Assembly: GCA_013239625.1 (NCBI GenBank)
Contig: MU053652.1
Coordinates: 6,005,902-6,069,901, forward strand
Source of the DNA: Lama guanicoe
Taxonomy: Eukaryota
Reading direction: 5' to 3'
DNA length: 64,000 nt
Shown here in pieces: positions 13,298 through 64,000 of the stretch. Within the stretch, counting starts at the first letter, position 1. Each line of letters begins with the position of its first letter. Under the pieces are notes generated by a model that was not told the origin of the DNA, ran no database searches, and saw only the letters and a program-made list of their open reading frames with translations. Both the position numbers and the translations under genes were made by a program.

Positions 13298-13431
13298 TTG
13301 ATTTAATTTCTTGGGGAAGGTAATTAGGTTTATTTATTTATGTATTTATTTATTGACGGTACCGGGGATCAAACCCAGGACCTCATGCATGCTAAGCACA
13401 CACTCTACCACTGAGCTATACCCTCTCCCCT
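13298..13431 (-). mobile_element. Camelid-type tRNA-derived SINE (Vic-1-like) with TSD
   Basis: Minus strand reads ggggagagggtatagctcagtggtagag...gaggtcctgggtttgatcccc (A and B boxes) followed by a (TAAA)n tail. TSD taactcatcattca(c/t)ag at 13281-13297 and 13432-13448. Confidence 0.9.
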
Positions 13432-22597: not shown

Positions 22598-22806
22598 TTT
22601 TTTTTTGTGGGGGAGGGTAATTAGGTTTATTTATTTATTTTATTTTTAGTGCAGGTACTGAGGATTGAATCCAGAACCTCGTGCATGCTGAGTGCGTGCT
22701 CTACCACTGATTTTTTTTTTTAATGGAGGTAATGGGGAATGAACCATGAACCCAGGACCTCATGCATGTTAAGCATGCACTCTACCACTGAGATATAACC
22801 CCCCAA
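22598..22806 (-). mobile_element. Two nested or tandem camelid-type SINE copies
   Basis: Two SINE bodies, each containing ctctaccactga, separated by a T11 tract at 22711. Confidence 0.85.
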
Positions 22807-28800: not shown

Positions 28801-31065
28801 AATCTTCCATTTTATTTCATTGGATTATGGGACGCAGCTGGGATCTATTCTCATAGGATAGATGGGTAGTGAATTTAGCGGTACAGAACTCAGCCAGATG
28901 TTCTAATAGACTGAACTCCAAATATAATAATGTTGAATAAATGAGTGAATGAACATTAAGAGCAGAGGATATTCTAATTGTCTTTATGAGAATATGAAAG
29001 TTAGGAAAAGCACATTTAGCAGAATCAATATTTTGCTGGAAAAATACAATCTACGTTTCACCCCCTCTTTTTCATGTCTCCCTTCCTTGTCCTTTTCTGC
29101 CCTCATTTTCTCAGTTCTGTTTCTCCAGATCACTTCTGTGTTTGCCAGAGCCAGTCCCTCCCTCCTGTCAATGATAATTAGCATCCATTCCCTGTGGCTC
29201 TTTCTGGATTTTTTTTTTTAACCGAAGAGTCATTTTTTTTCTTTAACATTTCCTACTGATTTAATTTTCACTCCTGTTTTAAATTCCTCATTAACTTTGA
29301 TTAAGCTTTCCCAGGGCTTAAATACCTGGAAAACTTTTGGAAACTTAATCATTTGATTTGCCTTCTCAGCTTTCCTAGTTTTGCCTAGTTTTAAGGCTGT
29401 TAAACCTAAAATTGGTGCCTAGGAGATGGTGTGATCACAGAGGGGAAATGAAATGATGGCATTGTTAGTGAAAGTTTAATGATGAATTTCACTGGAAAAA
29501 ATCTCACACTTCAGTGTTCTTTGTGTGTCATGCTGATAAGCAGCTAATAATTTTAAATGCCTTCATTTTAGATTTAATTTATTGAAAACACTTATAGTTT
29601 TCAAGTCCACATAAATACTGGTTACAAGTTCACCCAGTCTAGAAGAAAATTAACCTTACATTGTCCTTTGTAAATTTTGTAGCTTTCCTCAGCAAGTCTC
29701 TTTGATTTTAATTCTGTAGACCATTAATTATTTTCTTAAACCTACCGTAATTATTCTGATTAAGAATGTGGAGTCTGGAGGTTGATCTTAAGCACAAAGT
29801 ATTCCCTTTTTTTTTTTTTTTTTAATTCTAGAATCTGAAGCCAAGAAAGATTAAATTTACAGAACTGGATAATAGCAAAGCCAGATCAGAACCCAGGGAT
29901 TTGGCTGTTTTGGCAGGGAGGGGTGGAGTGCTCTGCCTAAACACTGCTCACCAGGGACATTCACTATAACCATATACCATATTGTCATGCCGGTTCGTCT
30001 GAAAATCACCCTTGTCAACTCAAGTCTAGATGCATAGGAAGGATTGGAATACACATATATGTACCTGCTTAGGGCTCTGGTTATTTTTAGAAATGATTAT
30101 AGAGAGAGTTCATTTTAATTGAAATGGATGGTATTTTCCCTTGACTTTGGAGGAAGTTGTAACCTTCTCATGATCCTGCTATGTGAACTCTAGGACTGTG
30201 CCTTGTGTCCTTTAAATCGAGCACTTGTTGACAGTCTGTGTTGTAAGATCTACTGGGGATCATCAAAGGATATAGTTTGCATCATCTGAGATAGTCGTAG
30301 GTCCAATTATTTGCCCTTTGTTCCCACAATGGATATTACCAAGATAAGCGCTGTTCCCGCTGCTGAGGAAGATAAACAGAAATATAGGCTGCTCTTTGAT
30401 TAGAAAGCAAACAACCCTACTGAACTTAGCTATATTAAAATAAATACCAAGAGTATTCATGGTATTCTAGTTACAGATTTTTATTTGACTTTGTGTTTAT
30501 TTGAGGTTTCCATATGCAACATAATCCTTTTTTATTGTAAGCCATAGAGGCAGCTGAAGAGCGAACTGCTTTGATATGAATAGGTAGGTTCTGCCATAAG
30601 ATATCTGCTTTTAGGAACTGTGATTCTTGTCCGTATAATCAATGTAATTGTCTCCTTATTTCTGTTAAAGGAATTACCTTGTTTAATATAATTTGAGATG
30701 AAACTAGTTATTCGATGCCATTGGAAAATAGTTTTATCCTCTTTTTGAGATTTTGGTCAGATAAGTGATTTGAATGCCTTTCACCTTCATTGAATAACTT
30801 ATTTTGGTCAGGCTCACACCTTCACCTCCTGTACAGACCCCTGTCATGGGGGGATTATAAAAGGTGACAGTAGAGATGAATGTAATAAAACCACACTGAC
30901 ATCACTTGTGTCCCTCGACTTTTTAAACCTTGTGATCCTTATGCATTTTGGAGAATCCTCCCTACAATGCACAAGTCTCTGTTCCTCAGGGCGTCCTTAT
31001 TATCCCTCAGGGTCCCCACTGCATTGCAGGTGAGGTCAGCGTTCCTCTGACTCATTACTAGCCAG

Positions 31066-40183: not shown

Positions 40184-42079
40184 GATTTTAGAGCTTAAGC
40201 CAACCAGAATTTACTTCATAGATTGGTGGATGTATTTTTTGTTTGGAGTTCAGAATAGCAGATGGTCAGTGTAAAAGGTTTTAAAGAGATCTAGGCTAGA
40301 GAAACTCTGACAAAGTGTTTCCATCGCTAACAGAGCACTGTAGCAGCATGATTCAAAATGAAATATAAATTGATGTTGACTATGCAGTCTTCTTTCAGTG
40401 ATAAAAGTAATAAAGAGGAAGTCAGTCAGTATGACATTTTATGGTGCATTTACACCAGTTTTCTTTCAAAATTGCTAATAGTGATAAGAGGATATATTGA
40501 TCCACACTAGAGAATGAAAATCCCTCTTGGTGAGAAGTGATGAAACACTGGGAGGACGTATTCCAGGACTATGTAGTTCCAGTTTTTAGGAGGTTGATAG
40601 AGTAAGAAGGGAACTAAAATTTAACTCAGGGCCTCTCTTCTCCTCATGAATCTTCCTCACATGTATACACCTGAAATAAGGAATACGGGAGCAGGAGAGA
40701 GGGAGAAGGGAACAAGAAAGGGGGAAAGGTGTGCAAGGAAGGTTGTTCTAGGACAGCTCCTCAATTTCAAAGATGACAGGATGCTAACAAGTGTGAGAAG
40801 TGAGAACAGACATACTGGTGAGAAGTCGAATCAGAGAGGTTTACTGCTGATTGCCTCTGGGCTCAAAAACTGCAGAAAATATATGTGTGCACATCTTTAT
40901 ATATATTCTTTTATGTCCACACTGAGGAAGAGACAGACAGAGGCAGACACAGAATATAAATACGCAGCCTTATACAGAGATCGATAAATATGCATAGATA
41001 TCAGAATATTTCTTTAACTCTCAGACATCAATCCGTCTTGTTCGTGTGATTAGAAAACAGACTAGCTTGATTCTATCCTAGTTTGAAATAGTATTTCTTC
41101 TTAGTTATGTATGCCAGTTAATTCTCACAAAACACATTTGCCCCCATAGCAGGCGGAATCCAATCATAAATATCTTTATCTTATTATCCTCACCACCCTC
41201 TAAAATAGTATCTCAGCCATTATTTGCACAAAAGACTATCTTAGGTTCCGATTAATTTTACTGATAGGTTACAACATTCTTTACATTTTTTTCTTCTGTC
41301 TAAGATGCCCTCTTCCGTTGAGTCCTTAGGCTCTAAGTGAGGCAATTGGGAAGATTTCATGTCCCACATTCCTTCAGCTGCCCTCTTACCGCTCGTATGC
41401 TCTGGTTATGTGTTAATAGTTTCCTGACATCTGAAATCACAGCCCCATTGAGCCACGTGGAGTGTTTTTATCTCAAAGGGATTCAACCTTAAATACAGAT
41501 GGGCTTGTCGGCATGGTCCCAATGACATTTTTATAATCCATAATGTTCTTCAGCAAGATGTGGTTAATGATCCTTCACACCATCCAACCAGAGAGCGCAG
41601 GGTTCCTGGCGGAAAAGCGTGCCCACATCCCAGCTTCTAGCCTCCTCAGCTCAAAGTTACTACTGTAGGAACTGGCTGATGGACACCTGGGTATTGCTAC
41701 GTTATTTATTTTATTATGATTGGTATTAATATTGTTGTCTCCTGCTTGTCTCCTTGTCTTGCTACTTTAATTGAGCCCAGTTTGACTTTTTGCTTTTGGA
41801 ATGCCATTCTCCCCAGGCTTGGAGGGAAAAGATTGCCCTCCTGTCAGTGTCTCCTCTTGCTTGGCTCTAACTCCAAAATTAGCTAGTCCTTCTGGAGAAT
41901 GACTTCCAGAAGGTTTATTGACCCCTGACAAATGTAATGAGACTATTCAGAAAACTATCGTGGAAAGTACAATGAAGACAAGATGTAAGCCTGTGGAATA
42001 CCTGTGACACATCGTCTCTAAGTCCCTTCAATTTGTCCCTTTACTCTTTTCAGATGATTCTTCTCTTGGCCTTTGGACC

Positions 42080-42900
42080 CTACACTGCTGGAAATAAGTT
42101 CAATAAATGGTTAATAAACATCCACTTTGTGTTAGGCACTGTGCCCTCTAATGTGAGGGTACATCCTTGCCACATACGGTTCATAGCATCTGAGGTAGGC
42201 GATGTCCTACATGGTCGGTAGATGTGCTTCTACACAAAATTAAATAGATACAATAAAGAGAGAGTCAAGCAAAGGGCTAAAGATATTTCCAAATGGCAGG
42301 AGAAAAAAAAAACTCCAAGAAGGTGACATTTGGGTAAGAACTTGAACGTAGATTAGAAAGTTGATAGCAGAGAAAAAGACAGATATGCATTTCAGGTTGT
42401 TCAAGAAACTTGAGCAATTTGGGGAGACTGGATGCTGTGCCTGGGCATTCTAGTGTGTGTCCTAAGGGGACAGTGTGGTTAGAGTAGATCATGCAGTGAG
42501 ATTTAGTGTCAAGTGAGATGGAAAAGGCAGTGAGGCCAGGGGAGTACAAAGTTGGGCGTGGGGGTGCTTACAATGCCAGCTAAACAAAACTGACCTCTGT
42601 CTGTCCTACTGGCCGTAAGGAGGCACCGGAGGGTTCTGAGTAATGTGATTCCACAAATATTCCAGAGCCATCGCTCTGCTTGATGGAGGACCACAGAGAC
42701 CAGTTAGAAAGCTCGTGTTAGGTCAGATTTCGAGGGGTACAGTCATGGGATTGGAAAGAAAAGAAAGATACATGGGACAATTTTCAGAAGTTGAAGACCA
42801 TACTTCGTGAAGTATGATGAATATCCAAGGAAAGAATGAGTATAGCTCCGGAGTGTCTAGACTGGGATGTTGCCAACTTATTCTGGACTAGACTAGAGCC
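42080..42900 (-). mobile_element. L2 element
   Basis: catccactttgtgttaggcactgtg...gaaggtgacatttgggtaagaacttgaa...gagaccagttagaaag. Confidence 0.65.
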
Positions 42901-43710
42901 TAGAAATATAGCAGAGAGGCAAGAGAGACCAAGTCATGAAGCAAGCAAATGTCACCCTGGGCACATGCTAGAAATCAATAGTTGACAATTCCCCTTTGAT
43001 CTTGCTGGTACCATTTATGACTCTGTATCTCGTTCTGTAATGCCTTCTGGCTGTCTCTCCATACTTACCCACCCAGGCTACTTTCCAGTACTCTGAACCT
43101 TCTCTCTGAAGAAACCTGCTTGTTCGTATGCGTCAAACCATCAGACTCTTGCACTGAGCTAATTAACAGATACAATTACCTGTGTTGATGTCTTAACAAG
43201 TTAGTGGGTTAACCTCCCAGAGCAATCTTGTTGCATTTTACACATAACCTTTTGCTTAATCTAAATAGTTATGCTAATAGTGGGAATTCTCTGCCTGGTG
43301 CTGGAGCAGTAGGAAGATTTCTGGCAGTGTCTGCGTCACCGAATGTGCATCTCTTCTGCTTTTTGGATGGAACTGCTCTATACAGAGCCATAACATGGGG
43401 AAAAGAAAGTATTGTTAAAATTACACAGTGATATTTAGGGACTCCAGGATTACAAAACCAAACCAAAAAAAAAAAAAATTTAACACCTGAGAAAAGTTTA
43501 TGTTCAAAATGTAAATGTATCATTTCTTTCAAAGCACGATATTAAACACACTCATGTTACAGAAAAAGAATCTGGTAAAAATGCTTTTATTTTATTTTTT
43601 ACAAAGTGTACTTCTCTCCTGAAAAAGTGTTGATTAAACCAAGGCTCAGGAGATAGGAGAAGCAGGGGGCTAATTTTATCACCGTTGACAATGACCTCTC
43701 TTTGTGGAGA

Positions 43711-43930
43711 CTCCCCATTTCTTTCACAGTTGCTTCCAGGTAAATTTGCATCATCAACCTTCAGGGGAATAATTGCTCATATTGGTACTTCTGTAATAAG
43801 AATCCTGTCCCCTCCTGCTGAAATGCAGCCACCTAAGGGGCAGATGGTAATGACCATTTGAAAGAGCGTGGACTGCAGTAAACAGATTAAGCGTAGAAGT
43901 GACACAGATTATGAGAGACTTTAGGGGACT
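43711..43930. repeat. Left arm of a 220-bp inverted repeat
   Basis: Reverse complement aligns without gaps to 44697-44916 with 15 mismatches (hand alignment). Confidence 0.97.
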
Positions 43931-44159
43931 TCGAGGCAGCTAGAACATTATTGCCCAAATTAAATTTGGCCTAAACCACAGGCTAATGCTTCTTTTCTAG
44001 CCACATGTTTCAGGGAGACATTAATGTTCTACGTTGTAATTTTCTATATAAGGGGAGACAGGCATTTTTGAGCAAAGCGAGGGTTTACAAGCCATTATTA
44101 TATTGGCTTTCTGGTTGCTTGGTATCTGGAAATGTCTGGAGTCCATATTTACTTGCTTG

Positions 44160-44285
44160 TGTGTTTAAAATTGTAGTAAAATATACATAACAAAATTGAT
44201 CATTTTAATCGTTTTTAGGTGAACAGTGGCATTAAGTACCTTTGCAGAACTGAGCAACCATCACCACCGTCCACCTCCATTAGAG
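44160..44285 (-). mobile_element. L1MA/MB 3'-end fragment inside the inverted-repeat spacer
   Basis: ttgtagtaaaatatacataacaaaatt..catttta...agtggcattaagtac...caaccatcaccac. Confidence 0.7.
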
Positions 44286-44696
44286 TCCTTATTTATTTTT
44301 GTTTCATAGTAATTTTTGTTTCTATGATTATGTATATTTACGGAACTGTGGTTTCCTTATTTTTTCTTTTCTTTTTCTTTTTTTTGGTTATCATAGCTTC
44401 TTTCTTCCCAGATTTTGTGACTGTTTCAAAAATAGATTTTCAATTCAAAATGTGTTTCTCTCAGGAAGAGAAATCATACGTTCCACTATTCTCAGTAGAA
44501 CTAACATCTCAATTTGAAAAACACAGGAATGCTTGGTTTCTCCAGGGCTGTGTTGCTAATGCCTTAACCAAAAAACAGTTATAATTATGACAATTCCGTA
44601 TCAACAGTATTGAGTTGACGTCCCCGTGCCTTACAGCAGCTTCAGAGGGGGCTACTTTAAGAGCAATTTGAATTATTCCAAATGTTTTAAAAATAC

Positions 44697-44916
44697 AGTC
44701 CCCTGAAGTCTCTCATAATCTGTGTCACTTCTACGCTTAATCTATTTACCGCAGTCCACGCTCTTTCAAGTGGTCGTTACCATCTGCCCCTAAGGTGGCT
44801 GCATTTCAGTGGGAGGGGACACGATTCCTATTACAGAAGTACCAACATGGACAGTTATTCCCCTGAAGGCTGATGATGCAAATTTACCTGGAAGCAACTG
44901 TGAAAGAAATGGGGAG
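44697..44916. repeat. Right arm of the 220-bp inverted repeat
   Basis: agtcccctgaagtctctcataatctgtgtcac...gaaagaaatggggag is the reverse complement of ctccccatttctttcac...ttaggggact. Confidence 0.97.
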
Positions 44917-45274
44917 CGAGTCGACTACTGCGGCGTTTCTTTGGGAAAAAACTTTGGAGGATGACCTAGCGTGTAGATGGAATTTGGAGCACCTCTTGAT
45001 CAGTTTTTCTATTCGTTTCAAACAGCACAATAAAAAAACCATCAACAAGCTATTTGGTGTCATGACCCCTTTGAATTTTAAAGTACTTGTTCTCTCCAGA
45101 ATGATGCATTTTCACAGGCTGTTTACTAACTACTACAGGTGGTGGGAGCATTTCTGGAAGCTCACTTATAGCCCCCTCAGGGGTCTGTGGAATTTGGATT
45201 AGCGATCAGTGATGTACAGATGCGGAGGCGAAAGCTTTCCTGATGATCTTGTAATAGTACATTGTTCAGTCTGT

Positions 45275-45430
45275 AGGCTCCTGCTACTCAGAGCGTGGTG
45301 TGCAGGTCAGGACGGCTGACATCACCGGGGAGCTTGTTAGAAATGGACACCTAGACTCCACCCCAGACCCACTGAGTTAGAATCTGCCTTTTAGAAATAT
45401 CCTGGGTGATCTGTGTCTACATTAAGCACT
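45275..45430. mobile_element. MER5A-like hAT-Charlie element
   Basis: catcaccggggagcttgttagaaatg...ccccagacccactgagttagaatctgc. Confidence 0.75.
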
Positions 45431-46557
45431 TCACACACATAGGCCAGAGGATAAATGTGTGTGCATGTGTATTTGCATCCTAGAATAATTCTTAAGGCTT
45501 TTTCATATTATATAGATATTAGTAGTAATTTATAGGTACTGCTATTTGGATGTATAAGTCCTAAAAGTTATTCACATCAGAATTTGAAATATTTGTGCAC
45601 TTTGATACAGCAAATCCAAATGAAGAAATTTTTTTTTAAAAACCAACTATTATATAAAGAAATAAATATGAGATTTTGGGGGGGGGCAATATTTTTATAT
45701 GACCCAATAATTGGTAATGGCATACAAGTATCCACAACAATGGGACTGGGTAAATAAAATTCAGTACTCATAGAAACAGAATAAATGCATAGCCAACAAA
45801 GTTGTATTGGTGATCTTTATGTATTAACATATAGAGTTTTCCATAATTGCTGTTAATTGAAAAAAGGCTTTTCATGCAGGCTTTAAACCTGCATCAATAG
45901 TATTATTAGATAGTATTACATGATTGGTTTTTTAATAGATAGCTGTAGACATAATGAGAAAAAACATAGCTCTGATAATGACCATGGTTGTCACTAAATG
46001 CTGGTGGGATGATGGAGATACTCTCTTCTCTCTTTTTTATTCTCTTCTCTTTCTTTTGCTTATCTCTACTTTCAAATTGTCTTTACAATGAACATGGATA
46101 TCTCTATAGTGAATATTTTATGGTAAAAAAGTAGAAACACTAGCTTTGTTCTCACACTAATATTCAGCTCTTTTCATCTCATATTCAATGAAATTCTGCT
46201 TCCTTCCATTTTTGATGATAAAGAGAGGACGAGTACATGAATTTGGTTTTGAAAGGGCAATGAATAGATGGAGCACATCTTCTTGGATATTGGCCCTTGG
46301 ATATGGTTTCCTTCTGTTGATACATAGGAGACTAGACTATGGACCAAGAAAACGTGAACATTAGTTTTTCCCCTTCCCCAGTGAGACAATCTGATTATTG
46401 GTTGTTGCCAGGCAACATTACAACTTATCCTTTAGATTTGGTACAACTGTTGCAATAATGCCATTTTCACGGAGAAAGTGAGGAACTTTCAAAACTCATA
46501 TGACAAAAGCTAAATATAATGGAAAATGAATAAAAGGGTATATCATTACAAAGGCAT

Positions 46558-46690
46558 TGAGTTTGAGATTTGCAAATCATAACCACTATATATAAAAAAT
46601 AAGTAAAAAAACAAATTTCTTTTATATAGCACAGGGAACTACATTCAATATCTTGTAATAACCTTTAGTGAAGAAGAATATGGAAATGAA

Positions 46691-46721
<31 letters not shown>

Positions 46722-46809
46722 GCATGACTGGGACATTATGCTGCACATGAGAAATTGACACATTTTAACTGACTATACTTAATTAAAAAAAAAGAAAAAA
46801 CGTTTTTTA
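46558..46809 (+). mobile_element. 5'-truncated young L1 3' end with internal (TA)n
   Basis: gagtttgagatttgcaaa...gcacagggaactacattcaatatcttgta...aaattgacaca...A-tail. TSD aaaggcat at 46550-46557 and 46810-46817. Confidence 0.85.
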
Positions 46810-47815: not shown

Positions 47816-50569
47816 GCTTTATGATATACAAATGCTTCTGTGTATTTAGGAAATCTAATATTATTTCAGTAAAGCCACAAATTAATTAGTTAATCATCTT
47901 ATTATCACAGTGAGTGAACAACTTGTGGCTAAGCTGAGTGGCACGTCTGGAATGCCAGCAGGTGCACCTGTAGTCCCAGGGTCAGCCAGAGCTGTGCAAG
48001 CGATCAGCGTTCCTCTCTGTACATGAAACGGCAAACACACACGTCACACGTATTGTGTGTTTTGATATGATTCTTTACTTCCTGTGCTAATTCTAGTGAT
48101 AAGCCAGAGTTTGTGAGATTCATAAGAGGAAATAAAAAAGTAGATTCCTCCAAGTTTATCTGGTGTAAAATTTTATTTTTGAAAGAATATATCTGTAATG
48201 TAATGAAATTTTAGTTTCATTCACAGCAACAGATCATTGCATTAAAGCTTTGTTACGTTTGGGCTTCAAAGCTCAGAGTAAAGGGTTAGGTGGATTTAAT
48301 GCTTTTGATTAGCGCATTTTCATACTTTTGGTGGTGTTCAACAGATCAATTTCTCAATGAGCTAAATACGGAGTGAAATGCAAACATTTGTTATTAATCA
48401 CCAGTACGAACATAAATAGCTATAAGGCATTAACTCCTTCCAAATGGGAATTCATGTTGACAAAAACAAAATGTCAACTTGTTTAAATTTTTACACCCTT
48501 AATTGATTAAATCAGTGGGGGGAGGAAATGATAATTTTTAGTTAATTAATTTTTGGTCAAACAAAGCTATTGATTTATTCTACATTCATAGACATGGCCC
48601 TGAGGGATGGAGTCTATAATAATTATTAATAACGTTATTTTTTAAAAATATTATACCTTTTAATCCTCCAGCTACTTTATAATAAAGGTGATATTCACCT
48701 CATGCAGAAAAGGGAACATACACAGTGAGATTTTGTCAATGTCTAGAATCTGAGCTATGGCAGGATTGATTCCAAAGCCTTTGCTCTTTCTACCACTAGA
48801 CCCTTCTCCCTTTGGATAGATGATGTCTGATCCTGACCTTCATGTTCATTGTTTAACATTCCATCATTAAAAGTCAACATTAACATGACTGCTTTAAAGA
48901 AAGATAGAACCACTGAGATCTCACGGATCAACTTCAGTTAAGGATAACCTTATGTTTGTGCATATCCACCATGTCCAGCAGATAAGGAGGACTCAGGACT
49001 TATTGATGCTGTTGGTGATGATGTCAGTGGGGATGGTGATGAGGTACCATTGCCCTGGAGGAGCAGGAAGGCCAGTGGGGGAAGGTTGACAAGGGCCTGA
49101 TTCTAGTGTCTAGGAGGACTAGACTAGGTAAGAAATGCTTGAGCTTGTTGTCACTAGCAAATATGAGAGGCAAATCCCTATGTCGGTCTGAGTCAACACT
49201 GAGATTAAATAGACTGGGGCTGATTTTTAAAATACAAAGTTAACAAGGAAAGTGAGAAACTAAAATTCACAGCCTGTGGAATTAGGAAACCCCTTCAGCT
49301 GATGAATGAAAAGGAGGAAATAGGCAAAGCCTAGAGAAATTCCCCAGGTAGGGTCAGCTATTCTTCAGGATGTATTTTTTGTGGTGCTGTGGCCTGGGAT
49401 GTGGGAATGCCAGGAGCAATTAAAAAGAGAGACAGCTGATGATGGCCTGGGCATAGGACTAACTTTTTTATTTTCACAGATATATTTAGAACCACTTTAA
49501 AACATTTGTACTTGCTTTTAAATCCTTAATTAGTCTTTTAATCCAATGTGTTTCCATAAAACAGAACTTTAAATGGCAACAGGCCTTTCTCTAATGATCA
49601 TGGATACTATATCCACTTCTCTTTTAAAATGGAACCAAGAAATTTATTCTTAATTAAAACTAATTTCTATATAGCATTCCAGTATAAAACTATGATCAAT
49701 AATATACCAGGAAAAGTTCTATAGACATAGACTTAAAGTATATATCTTTGTCTTAAGATAACATTGTTATTCTTTCCTTTACTTGTAATACATGTACTAG
49801 AACATATGAGAAATTGATTGTTCTTTTGTAATTGACATAAAGCTAAACTAAACTAGTTGTAAAATGGAGACAAATCCCTGGTTAATATGGATACTTGATA
49901 TGTATCATACAGTTGTTAGAAGGAGGAAGTTATTTTAACACATATTATTTTTGGATATAAAGCTTAAGAATTCCTAATACCTTTTAGGAAAAACAATTTG
50001 CTTTTAGCTATTTAAAGGCCTTCAAATTTTAATGTTAAATTATTCAAGACTATCAGTGTCATGAACACTAATCTCAACCATTTGTTCTGGTACAAAGTTG
50101 TTTCCATTTTAACCAAAAAGACCTTGTCATTCAAGTGTTCCAAGTATTTGCAGACCCAGGACCAGAGTGTGTGGTATCAAGTTCTTCAGGAACGTCAGGG
50201 CCAGCTATCGTTAATTATTTAACATACATGTCCTTTTTTTTAGGTGCCAATATCTTTTAGACAAAAATACTGGAATACTATTGGGGGACTGTTCGGGGTT
50301 TTCTCAGCGATAAGCTACCTGACTGAGCTGAACTGAACTCGTTGGTGAATTGCAATTTTTTCTTTTTACAAAACCAGAGTAATCGAACTAGACTTTCCAA
50401 TGTTTTTTCTCAATTGTGCTGGGGAGACCATTGCTCTGAGAGCTGCCTCTGTCTACTAATATCTGTGTATTTTTAGCCATTGATATAAAGTGTGGTATTT
50501 ACCAAAAGATACCTTTATTTCTTTCTTCCAGGTCTTGTCTTTATTATATTTTAAAGAAAATACATTTTT

Positions 50570-51070
50570 TTGTTTCTTTTTAATTGAAGTATTGTTAATT
50601 TACAGTGGTCTGTTAGTTTTTGGTGTGCAGCATGGCGATTCAGTTATACATTTTTATATATACACATATATATTCTTTTCCATTATAGGTTATTACAAGA
50701 TATTGAATATAGTTCCTGTGCTATACAGTAGGACCTTGTTTATCTATTTTGTATGTGGTTGTTTGTATCTGCAAATCCCAAACACCTAATTTATCCCTCC
50801 CACCCACCCCCCATTCCCCTTTGGTAATCGTAAGTTTGTTTTCTATGTCTGTGAGTCTGTTTCAGTTTTGTAAATAAGTTCATTTGTGTCATTTTTTAGA
50901 TTCCACATATAAGTGGTATCATATGGTATTTGTCTTTCTCTTTAATACTACTCAGCCATAAAAAAGAATGAAATAATGCCATTTCCACAACATGGATGGA
51001 CCTAGAGGTTATCATACTAAGTGAAGTTAAGTCAGAAAGAGAAAGACAAATACCATATACTGCTTATATG
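50570..51070 (-). mobile_element. L1 3' end (minus) with an inverted segment (~50944-51070 plus)
   Basis: Poly-T followed by aattgaagta...ttacaagatattgaatatagttcctgtgctatacagtagg (laurasiatherian L1 3'UTR), then sense tactactcagccataaaaaagaatgaaataatgcc. Confidence 0.85.
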
Positions 51071-62741: not shown

Positions 62742-62878
62742 GTAGTGCTGGGACACCCGTCACTTTTAATGAAAATGGAGATGCTCCTGGACGTTACGAT
62801 ATCTTCCAGTATCAAATAACCAACAAAAGTACAGAATATAGAATCATTGGGCACTGGACCAATCAGCTTCATCTAAAA
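62742..62878 (+). CDS. GRM8: Internal coding exon of metabotropic glutamate receptor 8 (end of the Venus-flytrap domain), 137 bp, phase 1 to phase 0
   Basis: After the acceptor ...catttatAG (62740-62741) it translates as (G)[45 protein letters not shown]. This is the group III mGluR motif region, and [19 protein letters not shown] matches mGluR8 as I recall it. The donor is GCAAGT at 62879. Confidence 0.96.
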
Positions 62879-64000
62879 GCAAGTATCGCTATAAACTTGT
62901 ATTTATGTATATAGTTCTCAAGGAGAGATGCTTTTTAAGGATACAATGTTACTAATGTTCATTAGAATTGACTTTCATGTAAATACGTTTTTAGAAAATG
63001 TATGATTTGCTCTTTCCTCAACTTTAAAATGTTATGGCAAGTCCTAAATGTCTGTGGAGAAATTTGATATCTGTAGGGATTTGATGAAAAATCTCGTTTC
63101 CTTTTCAGTGACTAAATACACATTTAGGGAAATTTTACACTTTTCTGAAGGACTCACTTGTTCAAAAGTTTGTACTCTGTGTGCATGTGTGTTTGTGTGT
63201 TGGGGCTGAGGAATGACAAAGTGTGCCATGAATGATAAAGTTGGGGCTTAAAAATAAGTGGATTTCACCTTTGCTACACCCTAAGTTGAGATCTTACAGC
63301 TACATCTGATGGATGCAAGTGAAACATGATCTGTATTCACATTACCTCTTTGAATCACAACACCAGTGAAGTTTAATGCACCCAAAAGTGATGTTCAGAT
63401 TTTTCAACAGCTCTTAGGGCTGCCTGCTGTCCCTGTCCCCTATGGGTGCCATTAAGGCCCAAGACCCACAGATTTTGCATTTCCTACAAGTGGCCATGTG
63501 AGGACAACTTGGAGATCCCAGCTCAAAGCAAGGTCCCAGGGTCTAGGCAGCTGGGCATTTACTAGCCCAGTGCCATGCTGTCACCACCATCACCCCCCAC
63601 CCGGGGCTTTATCTCCTCCTACTGGGACCAAGTAGGAATGGCTCGTGGGATGGCGGCTGGTGGAGGAACTCCAGCAGGTGTGTCTAGAGATGCTCTCCGA
63701 GGAGAGAGGTCTTTGAGGATACTGGAGAGAGCTGCCTGGTTCTGGCAGCCAACAATCACAAGGGGCTCTCGAGCAGGAAGCCAATTCTGAACTTGAGGGG
63801 TAAGGGAGGCTCAGGAAGTTGCAGGGCACAGAGCTGGCGGTGGCTGCGTGACAAGGATGCCGGGGTGGTTGGAGCTGCATTTGTGTACCACTGGAAGGAA
63901 TTATTTCATATTTTAAAAGCCAGTGGTGTCCTATCCATGCACACTGGCTTCTTCTGATATAGAGAAATAAGGAGCGTGCCCTGTAGTCTCAGCTACAGCT
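62879..64000 (+). other. GRM8: Start of the next GRM8 intron (GC donor)
   Basis: Protein similarity stops at ...QLHLK. The next bases are GCAAGT, and read-through hits TAG at 62912-62914. Confidence 0.85.

What the first reader, a model, noticed from the sequence alone, without database searches (positions are those of the whole stretch)
43711..44916. Ungapped 220-bp inverted repeat of apparently non-transposon sequence deep in a GRM8 intron
Seen: 43711-43930 is the reverse complement of 44697-44916 with no indels and 15 mismatches (205/220), around a 766-bp spacer with sharp boundaries. Thirteen of the 15 differences are transitions. In the sense pre-mRNA 7 would be G-U wobbles, 6 A-C mismatches, and one each A-A and C-C. 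Ten differences have G/C on the right arm against A/T on the left, and only 3 go the other way. The arms resemble no repeat I recognise and are far more similar to each other than the surrounding old repeats are to their consensuses. Established: long intronic duplexes are ADAR substrates, A-C mismatches are favoured editing sites, and inverted repeats promote spacer inversion and arm-to-arm gene conversion. Inference: this is either a lineage-specific inverted duplication or an old repeat kept homogeneous by conversion. It could act as an RNA-editing or splicing-modulating stem in a brain receptor transcript.
Basis: partly seen in the sequence, partly recalled or inferred. Interest (0 to 1): 0.72.

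Follow-up and report, generated by a model that had tools for sequence, protein, structure and literature searches.

The report
Old inverted copy in GRM8 intron
A 220-base piece of an intron of the glutamate receptor gene GRM8 also stands backwards about 0.8 kb away, which looks like an ordinary old DNA-copying error; the RNA can fold back there, but nothing shows that this has a function.

Summary
Confirmed: 43711-43930 and 44697-44916 are reverse complements (205/220, no gaps, 766-nt spacer), the only long inverted repeat in the window, on the sense strand of a GRM8 intron 17.8 kb upstream of the next exon. Size, distance, sharp ends and a 4-nt microhomology (GACT) fit the commonest class of small human inversion-type variants: a local inverted duplication (<1 kb copy within 5 kb, median 284 bp) made by replicative template switching. 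The 7% arm divergence is mostly transitions with CpG decay, so it is old and not an assembly artefact. The stem should form and could be edited by ADAR as a by-product. A splice-site-like AG|GT lies in the left arm, but its rank depends on scoring, and it is not the primate alternative exon. Untested: orthologues, reads, genome copy number and Dfam, so conversion, an unrecognised repeat, which arm is the copy, and spacer orientation stay open. Ordinary; low interest.

The parts
43711..43930 (+). Left arm (220 nt), intronic, no strong fold of its own, 2 CpG
   Evidence: (z -0.78)
43931..44696 (.). Spacer, 766 nt, 35% G+C; no long frame with coding look; begins with TCG, the reverse complement of the three bases that follow the right arm
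44164..44281 (-). Old L1M-like 3' end fragment inside the spacer, antisense to GRM8 (family name recalled, not tested)
   Evidence: read; no library to confirm; not linked to another window copy
44697..44916 (-). Right arm, reverse complement of the left arm, 205/220, 5 CpG
43706..43712 (+). Outer-left junction GGAGACT: 4-nt exact (GACT), 6-of-7 direct repeat of the left arm's inner end
   Evidence: null p 0.046 exact, 0.024 scored, about 0.05 for either arm
43924..43930 (+). Inner end of left arm GGGGACT, partner of that microhomology
44917..44922 (+). Outer-right junction CGAGTC: holds AGTC (same 4-mer as the right arm's start, 2 nt off) and CGA (3-nt overlap expected if the spacer was inverted)
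43711..43745 (+). Pyrimidine tract with AG at 43728-29 and AG|GTAAAT at 43738-45: splice-site-like motif buried in the predicted stem; use not shown
62742..62878 (+). GRM8 coding exon (about residues 453-498), the next exon found downstream; fixes host gene and strand

Best explanation
One local copying error made it. During replication or break repair the nascent strand left its template, primed on the opposite strand about 0.8-1 kb away through a few bases of microhomology (GACT/AGTC stands at the ends of both copies), copied 220 nt backwards and switched back, leaving an inverted duplicate of ordinary single-copy intron. The copy became fixed and both arms have since decayed separately to 7% difference (roughly 7-30 million years, depending on the rate used). 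Shown: geometry, divergence, sharp ends, junction motifs, sense orientation. Inferred: the mechanism, the age, neutrality. Not resolved: which arm is the copy and whether the spacer was flipped in the same event (A-B-C'-B'-D, the staggered-break geometry); I put about 0.5 on a plain insertion and 0.2 on the flipped form. As a by-product the pre-mRNA can fold into a 220-bp duplex that ADAR would probably edit, as it does inverted Alu pairs, without a functional consequence.
For: Size and distance match the class: 54% of 229 validated human inversion sites were inverted duplications, nearly all <1 kb and within 5 kb of the other copy, not typically tied to retrotransposition (PMC4617611, passages); 277 events, median 284 bp, mostly 1-15 bp microhomology (PMC12350158, passages); single inverted repeats are the main product of short template switches (PMC7954356, passages). 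Only two copies in 64 kb and abrupt ends. No target-site duplication of 4-15 nt outside the whole unit or either arm. Microhomology of 4 nt (6 of 7) flanks the left copy. Mismatch spectrum is neutral: 7:6 G-U:A-C, p=1; no clustering (longest perfect run p=0.39; 4 in 9 nt p=0.12); CpG decay explains 4 of 15 differences, a fifth touches a CpG. K2P distance 0.073, raw 95% interval 0.038-0.112.
Against: No orthologue, read set or genome could be examined, so the ancestral single-copy state is not shown. Junction signals are weak (p about 0.05 for either arm; about 0.10 for the overlap test over four models) and point to different sub-models. Three features each sit near p=0.1 (G/C bias 10:3, 13 of 15 transitions, no indel); they may jointly hint at some conversion or constraint. 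A sense-strand splice-like site lies in the longest perfect run (46 nt).
Confidence: 0.7

Rival explanations
1. An older inverted pair is kept alike by arm-to-arm gene conversion, possibly with recurrent flipping of the spacer.
For: G/C-favouring asymmetry 10:3 (p=0.09) and no indel (p 0.08-0.29) lean this way; perfect runs of 46 and 38 nt lie near the two ends. Conversion between inverted repeats is established knowledge (recalled).
Against: No decayed homology beyond the ends; mismatches are not clustered into converted and unconverted tracts; 7% divergence is high for continuing conversion (inference).
Confidence: 0.1
2. The arms are two copies of an unrecognised repeat family, or the long terminal inverted repeats of a DNA transposon or foldback element.
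For: Could not be excluded: no repeat library or genome is held, and the camelid repeat libraries of PMC8605555 were not readable.
Against: No third copy in 64 kb; no target-site duplication; no transposase-like frame in the spacer (longest stop-free frame 121 aa, low complexity); the spacer seems to hold an old L1 piece, far more decayed than the arms (recalled); no tRNA-like head, unlike the two SINEs found; two independent insertions would rarely end at the same bases on both sides (inference).
Confidence: 0.1
3. The stem is kept by selection in the pre-mRNA: it hides a cryptic or recursive splice site in the left arm, or serves as an ADAR platform that tunes GRM8 processing.
For: The duplex is predicted with mean pair probability 0.96 and covers the AG|GTAAAT site fully. 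With a 28-nt tract score that site ranks 1 of 209 sense-strand AGGT sites. Human GRM8 has two catalogued recursive sites, and primates have an alternative exon in this intron.
Against: Rank falls to 4-13 of 209 under other scorings, and 2-16 of 227 antisense control sites score as well. A competing AG lies 10 nt upstream and no downstream donor scores above 0.7 within 350 nt. The primate exon has no match here (score 13-15, background peaks 20-25; simulated orthologues at 75% identity score this low in 1.7% of 300 trials). No sense-strand bias in mismatches or energy. The nearest exon found is 17.8 kb away.
Confidence: 0.07
4. Assembly or library artefact (fold-back chimera).
For: No reads could be laid (one search listed no run).
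Against: An artefact would give near-identical arms or indel-type errors; here 15 substitutions, 13 transitions, CpG-decay pattern and no indel.
Confidence: 0.02

Closest known systems
Small local 'inverted duplications' of the 1000 Genomes SV maps (Sudmant 2015, PMC4617611; long-read map 2025, PMC12350158)
   Same: Copy under 1 kb, inverted, within 5 kb of the other copy, size near the 284-bp median, short microhomology, no retrotransposon hallmarks.
   Different: Those are human polymorphisms with a known ancestral allele; this one is 7% diverged, presumably fixed, in a camelid-like genome, and its ancestral state was not seen.
Four-point template-switch mutations, types 1-4-3-2 / 3-2-1-4 (Walker 2021, PMC7954356)
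   Same: A single inverted repeat made by two switches.
   Different: That study treats short-range events; this tract is 220 nt with a 766-nt jump, and the switch order cannot be fixed without the ancestor.
Staggered-break inversions with inverted duplications at both breakpoints (Ranz 2007, PMC1885836)
   Same: Would give A-B-C'-B'-D; a 3-nt CGA overlap fits a second small stagger.
   Different: Described for large Drosophila inversions; inversion of this spacer is not shown, and the overlap is weak (p 0.027 alone, about 0.10 over four models).
Inverted Alu pairs edited by ADAR (Athanasiadis 2004, PMC526178)
   Same: Long intramolecular intronic duplex, similar stem length, short distance; editing there rises with closeness and likeness.
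   Different: Arms here are not a known SINE, are more alike than the SINE pairs in this window (75-86%), and editing was not observed or testable.
Species-specific long inverted repeats in long introns of nervous-system genes (as cited in PMC5414712)
   Same: Intronic long inverted repeat in a very long neural gene.
   Different: Reported for primates; the original study was not read. With arm/spacer ratio 0.29 and 7% mismatch this one looks unlikely to be 'recombinogenic' by that paper's criteria (my reading).

Membership tests
Local inverted duplication (1000 Genomes 'Inverted Dup') | Duplicated stretch under 1 kb, inverted, within 5 kb of the other copy | tested here: met
   220 nt, 766 nt apart; definition
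Local inverted duplication (1000 Genomes 'Inverted Dup') | Short microhomology, not long homology, at the junctions | tested here: inconclusive
   4-nt exact, 6-of-7 repeat around the left copy, p about 0.05 for either arm
Local inverted duplication (1000 Genomes 'Inverted Dup') | No retrotransposition hallmarks (poly-A tail, target-site duplication) | tested here: met
   No TSD of 4-15 nt outside either arm; no A-tail at the ends
Local inverted duplication (1000 Genomes 'Inverted Dup') | Ancestral allele or outgroup with one copy and the spacer in the same orientation | not testable with these tools
   No genome, run or orthologue obtained
Staggered-break inversion with inverted duplications | Spacer inverted relative to outgroup | not testable with these tools
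   No outgroup; strand skew too weak to orient it (window T-A skew 0.016, sd 0.117; spacer 0.138)
Staggered-break inversion with inverted duplications | Duplicated bases at the second breakpoint | tested here: inconclusive
   3-nt overlap, p 0.027 alone, about 0.10 over four models
Cut-and-paste DNA transposon / MITE | Target-site duplication outside the terminal inverted repeats | tested here: not met
   None of 4-15 nt within 5 nt of the ends; the flanks GA/CG give no 2-nt repeat
Cut-and-paste DNA transposon / MITE | Multiple genomic copies or library match | not testable with these tools
   No third copy in the 64-kb window; no genome or Dfam
ADAR-edited intronic inverted repeat | Long duplex within one transcript | tested here: met
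   Predicted only: 210 of 220 positions pair with probability over 0.9; + strand is sense
ADAR-edited intronic inverted repeat | Clustered A-to-G in RNA reads | not testable with these tools
   No run listed
Recursive splice site | Strong 3' splice site directly followed by a 5' splice site (AG|GT) | tested here: inconclusive
   Rank 1-13 of 209 by scoring; 2-16 of 227 antisense controls as good (home-made matrices from recalled frequencies)
Recursive splice site | Junction or lariat reads, or a catalogued orthologous site | tested here: inconclusive
   Human catalogue lists two GRM8 sites, chr7:126799993 and 127006369, and no chr7 coordinate beginning 1266; placing the orthologous spot near 126.63 Mb rests on recalled exon coordinates
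Primate GRM8 alternative exon (mGluR8c-type) | Homology to the 24-residue insert of primate isoforms | tested here: not met
   Score 13-15 at 43660-43760 against background peaks 20-25; power check
Known structured RNA or microRNA family | Rfam match | tested here: not met
   No match on arms or spacer at gathering score or E<=1

The most novel reading that the evidence does not exclude
The duplication was fixed because the new antisense copy pairs over and silences (or lets ADAR rewrite) a cryptic 3' splice site / recursive AG|GT site at the outer end of the left arm: a camelid-specific RNA stem, born in one template switch and perhaps kept by conversion, that controls use of an intronic splice site in a 100-kb-scale GRM8 intron already known to yield an alternative exon in primates.
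Probability: 0.06. Interest if true: 0.65.

Novelty: new member of a known kind. Interest (0 to 1): 0.17.

Why it matters
As it stands it is one more fixed example of a common mutation class and a usable lineage marker for camelids. It would matter more if orthologues showed concerted evolution of two short non-repeat arms, or if the stem controlled an intronic splice site, since that would show a regulatory RNA structure arising in one mutational step. Neither is supported by what could be tested.

Tried and rejected
Whole genome: none held. Sequencing runs for 40300-46500, DNA, library word PACBIO: none was listed, which is no evidence; no reads were laid. A 24-nt arm probe in metagenome contigs: 0 matches. 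Stop-free frames across the junctions used as protein queries to catch spurious orthologous frames of other mammals: nothing; the same arm frame in metagenome and viral contigs: 0 of 596 and 0 of 19 candidates confirmed. Vector or plasmid origin of the SalI-like junction: no match in 72,556 plasmids. Idea that 43666-43739 (74 nt between AG and GT) is the orthologue of the mGluR8c-type exon: rejected. Pre-miRNA or Rfam family: none. Older, decayed extension of the repeat: none in register; one off-register AT-rich match inside the spacer (5 of 300 shuffles) is unexplained and probably compositional. Strand skew to orient the spacer: uninformative. Tandem repeats at the junctions: none. The bacterial promoter/terminator scan does not apply to a mammal and was ignored. 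Literature: GRM8 + recursive splicing, 0 papers; editing/inverted duplication/GRM8 terms, 0 papers with 3 of 5 terms; GRM8/camel/alpaca/structural variant/inversion, none of the 15 listed (of 335) mentions GRM8. The library lacks most subscription papers, and the repeat libraries in the supplements of PMC8605555 could not be read; they bear on the repeat question.

Full report
OBSERVATION. The repeat is real and as described. Positions 43711-43930 equal the reverse complement of 44697-44916 at 205 of 220 bases, without gaps, around 766 nt (self-BLAST E 2.7e-90). It is the only inverted repeat over 72 nt among 42 pairs in the window. Both ends are abrupt: no in-register extension, and local alignments of the outer 400 nt and inner 100 nt score like shuffles (65 and 43 of 300 as good). 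The arm does not fold notably alone (z -0.78) and matches no Rfam family.

SETTING. A stop-free frame at 62732-62911 matches mGlu8 best (E 1e-27 against 9e-20 for mGlu4). The exon is 62742-62878 on +. So + is the sense strand, and the right arm ends 17.8 kb upstream of that exon. No other GRM8 exon turned up when 120 mGlu8-like proteins were run against the window (its output was cut in the middle), so the left arm appears to lie over 43 kb from the upstream exon. The genome looks camelid: two tRNA-headed SINEs of a type I recall from camelids, and earlier notes on this genome say the same. The spacer seems to hold an old antisense L1M-like fragment (44164-44281; name recalled, untested).

ARE THE MISMATCHES SPECIAL? 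No. G-U versus A-C in the sense RNA is 7:6 (p=1.0); selection for pairing should favour G-U. The sense duplex is no more stable than the antisense one (-394 versus -398 kcal/mol). The G/C bias of 10:3 has p=0.09; 13 of 15 transitions p 0.06-0.16 for assumed shares of 0.65-0.72; no indel p 0.08-0.29 for assumed ratios of 6-12 substitutions per indel; the longest perfect run (46 nt) p=0.39; the densest cluster p=0.12. Four differences read as CpG decay (43851, 43877, and the pair 43816-17, one ancestral CpG lost on both arms) and a fifth touches a CpG. Several p-values near 0.1 are not nothing, but none passes. This spectrum also argues against an assembly artefact.

AGE. K2P distance is 0.073 (raw 95% interval 0.038-0.112). 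All six SINE pairs aligned in the window are more diverged (75-86% identity). At the camel rate used in PMC8605555 (2.5e-8 per generation, 5 years; passages) this gives about 7 million years; at slower rates that I recall (1.2-2.2e-9 per year), 16-30 million. The Camelini-Lamini split is put at about 16.3 Ma (PMC12337305, passages). Without conversion the event is therefore camelid-specific, and it may or may not be shared by both tribes.

JUNCTIONS. No target-site duplication lies outside the unit or either arm. The 4-mer GACT/AGTC stands at all ends. Reading 1, left arm is the copy: it is flanked by GACT exactly, GGAGACT versus GGGGACT at 6 of 7, with no extra bases needed (null p 0.046 exact, 0.024 scored, about 0.05 for either arm; 4000 random segments). 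Reading 2, right arm is the copy: AGTC recurs 2 nt after its end, needing two untemplated bases. Reading 3, spacer inverted with the left arm ancestral: a 3-nt CGA overlap at the second break (p 0.027; about 0.10 over four models). These use the same few bases, are post hoc, and cannot be told apart without an outgroup. All three are one local copying event.

MECHANISM. Most likely (0.7) a replicative template switch or break repair primed by microhomology copied 220 nt backwards about 0.8-1 kb away; the product was fixed and has decayed neutrally. Geometry, divergence and junction motifs are shown; mechanism, neutrality and age are inferred. The pre-mRNA should fold here (210 of 220 positions pair at probability over 0.9 in a 1.3-kb fold). 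By analogy with inverted Alu pairs, where editing tracks closeness and likeness (PMC526178, passages), ADAR editing is likely as a by-product and would not by itself show function.

THE ONE LEAD TOWARDS FUNCTION. The left arm opens with a pyrimidine tract, an AG at 43728-29 and AG|GTAAAT at 43738-45, inside the longest perfect run. With home-made matrices (frequencies recalled) it ranked 1 of 209 sense AGGT sites, but 1, 1, 4, 5, 9 and 13 over six scorings, with 2-16 of 227 antisense control sites as good; no downstream donor for a recursive exon scores above 0.7. Primate mGlu8 isoforms carry a 24-25-residue insert from this intron (P0005, P0007, P0020, P0021, P0042), and a 74-nt AG..GT stretch ends at this donor, but it is not homologous: 13-15 against background peaks of 20-25, while simulated orthologues at 75% identity score 14.7 or less in 1.7% of 300 trials, 7% at 70%. 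A human catalogue that merges five studies has two GRM8 recursive sites and no chr7 coordinate starting 1266 (PMC13622621, first part and supplement searches); that the orthologous spot lies near 126.63 Mb is recalled. PMC10156609 has no GRM8 entry in 4 supplementary files. I leave this reading at about 0.06.

COMPARISON. Closest is the small 'inverted duplication': 54% of 229 validated human inversion sites, nearly all under 1 kb and within 5 kb, not typically retrotransposed (PMC4617611, passages); 277 events, median 284 bp, mostly 1-15 bp microhomology (PMC12350158, passages). Template switches mainly yield single inverted repeats (PMC7954356, passages). Staggered breaks give the inverted-spacer variant (PMC1885836, passages). 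Lineage-specific long inverted repeats in long neural introns have been reported for primates (cited in PMC5414712, part 1 of 2; original not read). It meets the size, distance and no-retrotransposition criteria; the ancestral-allele criterion was not testable. It fails the target-site criterion for a DNA transposon, but library membership was not testable. Also consulted without bearing on the verdict: PMC8755829 (part 1 of 5), PMC3176832 (abstract and outline), PMC6946651, PMC7327935, PMC10699790 (passages). Earlier AI notes describe like cases in camelid genomes; I did not check them and do not count them as support.

LIMITS. No genome, no runs listed, and no orthologue by any route. Copy number, Dfam status, conversion, spacer orientation, read support and editing are all untested. 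I found no paper on this locus, in a library without most subscription journals.

VERDICT. A real, old, local inverted duplication in a GRM8 intron; new member of a known kind; interest 0.17.

Noticed in passing
window 62876-62884: The GRM8 exon ends at a GC donor (AAA|GCAAGT). Read-through proteins of other mammals continue LHLK-A (P0002, P0003, P0005) and of birds LHLN-V, which suggests a GC-AG intron shared among mammals.
   Followed up: partly
proteins P0005, P0007, P0020, P0021, P0042: Colobine, lemur and mandrill mGlu8 models carry a 24-25-residue in-frame insert from this intron, apparently the counterpart of the human frameshifting mGluR8c exon (human form recalled). No clear match anywhere in this window; it may lie upstream of it.
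   Followed up: partly
window 44917-45000: Short CpG-rich patch right of the right arm (5 CpG in 84 nt, observed/expected 1.1 against 0.24 for the window), with a palindrome AGTCGACT at the junction; the right arm also keeps more CpG than the left (5 versus 2).
   Followed up: no
window 44193-44260 and 44533-44596: Weak off-register inverted similarity inside the spacer (5 of 300 shuffles as good), overlapping the L1M-like piece; perhaps compositional.
   Followed up: no
window 45280-45430: MER5A-like fragment (name recalled); gives a sub-threshold Rfam mir-544 hit (33 bits against gathering score 66.5).
   Followed up: no
window 13354-13425 and 22724-22802: tRNA-headed SINE copies that pass the Rfam tRNA threshold; further copies near 22600 and 31850.
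   Followed up: partly
window 46561-46800 and 50566-50783: Older inverted pair of L1 3' ends about 3.8 kb apart (69% over 245 nt), a second possible but weaker duplex in the same intron.
   Followed up: no
window 31030: Second-ranked sense AG|GT site with a strong donor (CAG|GTGAGG), closing a candidate 193-nt exon 30837-31029; nothing shows use.
   Followed up: no
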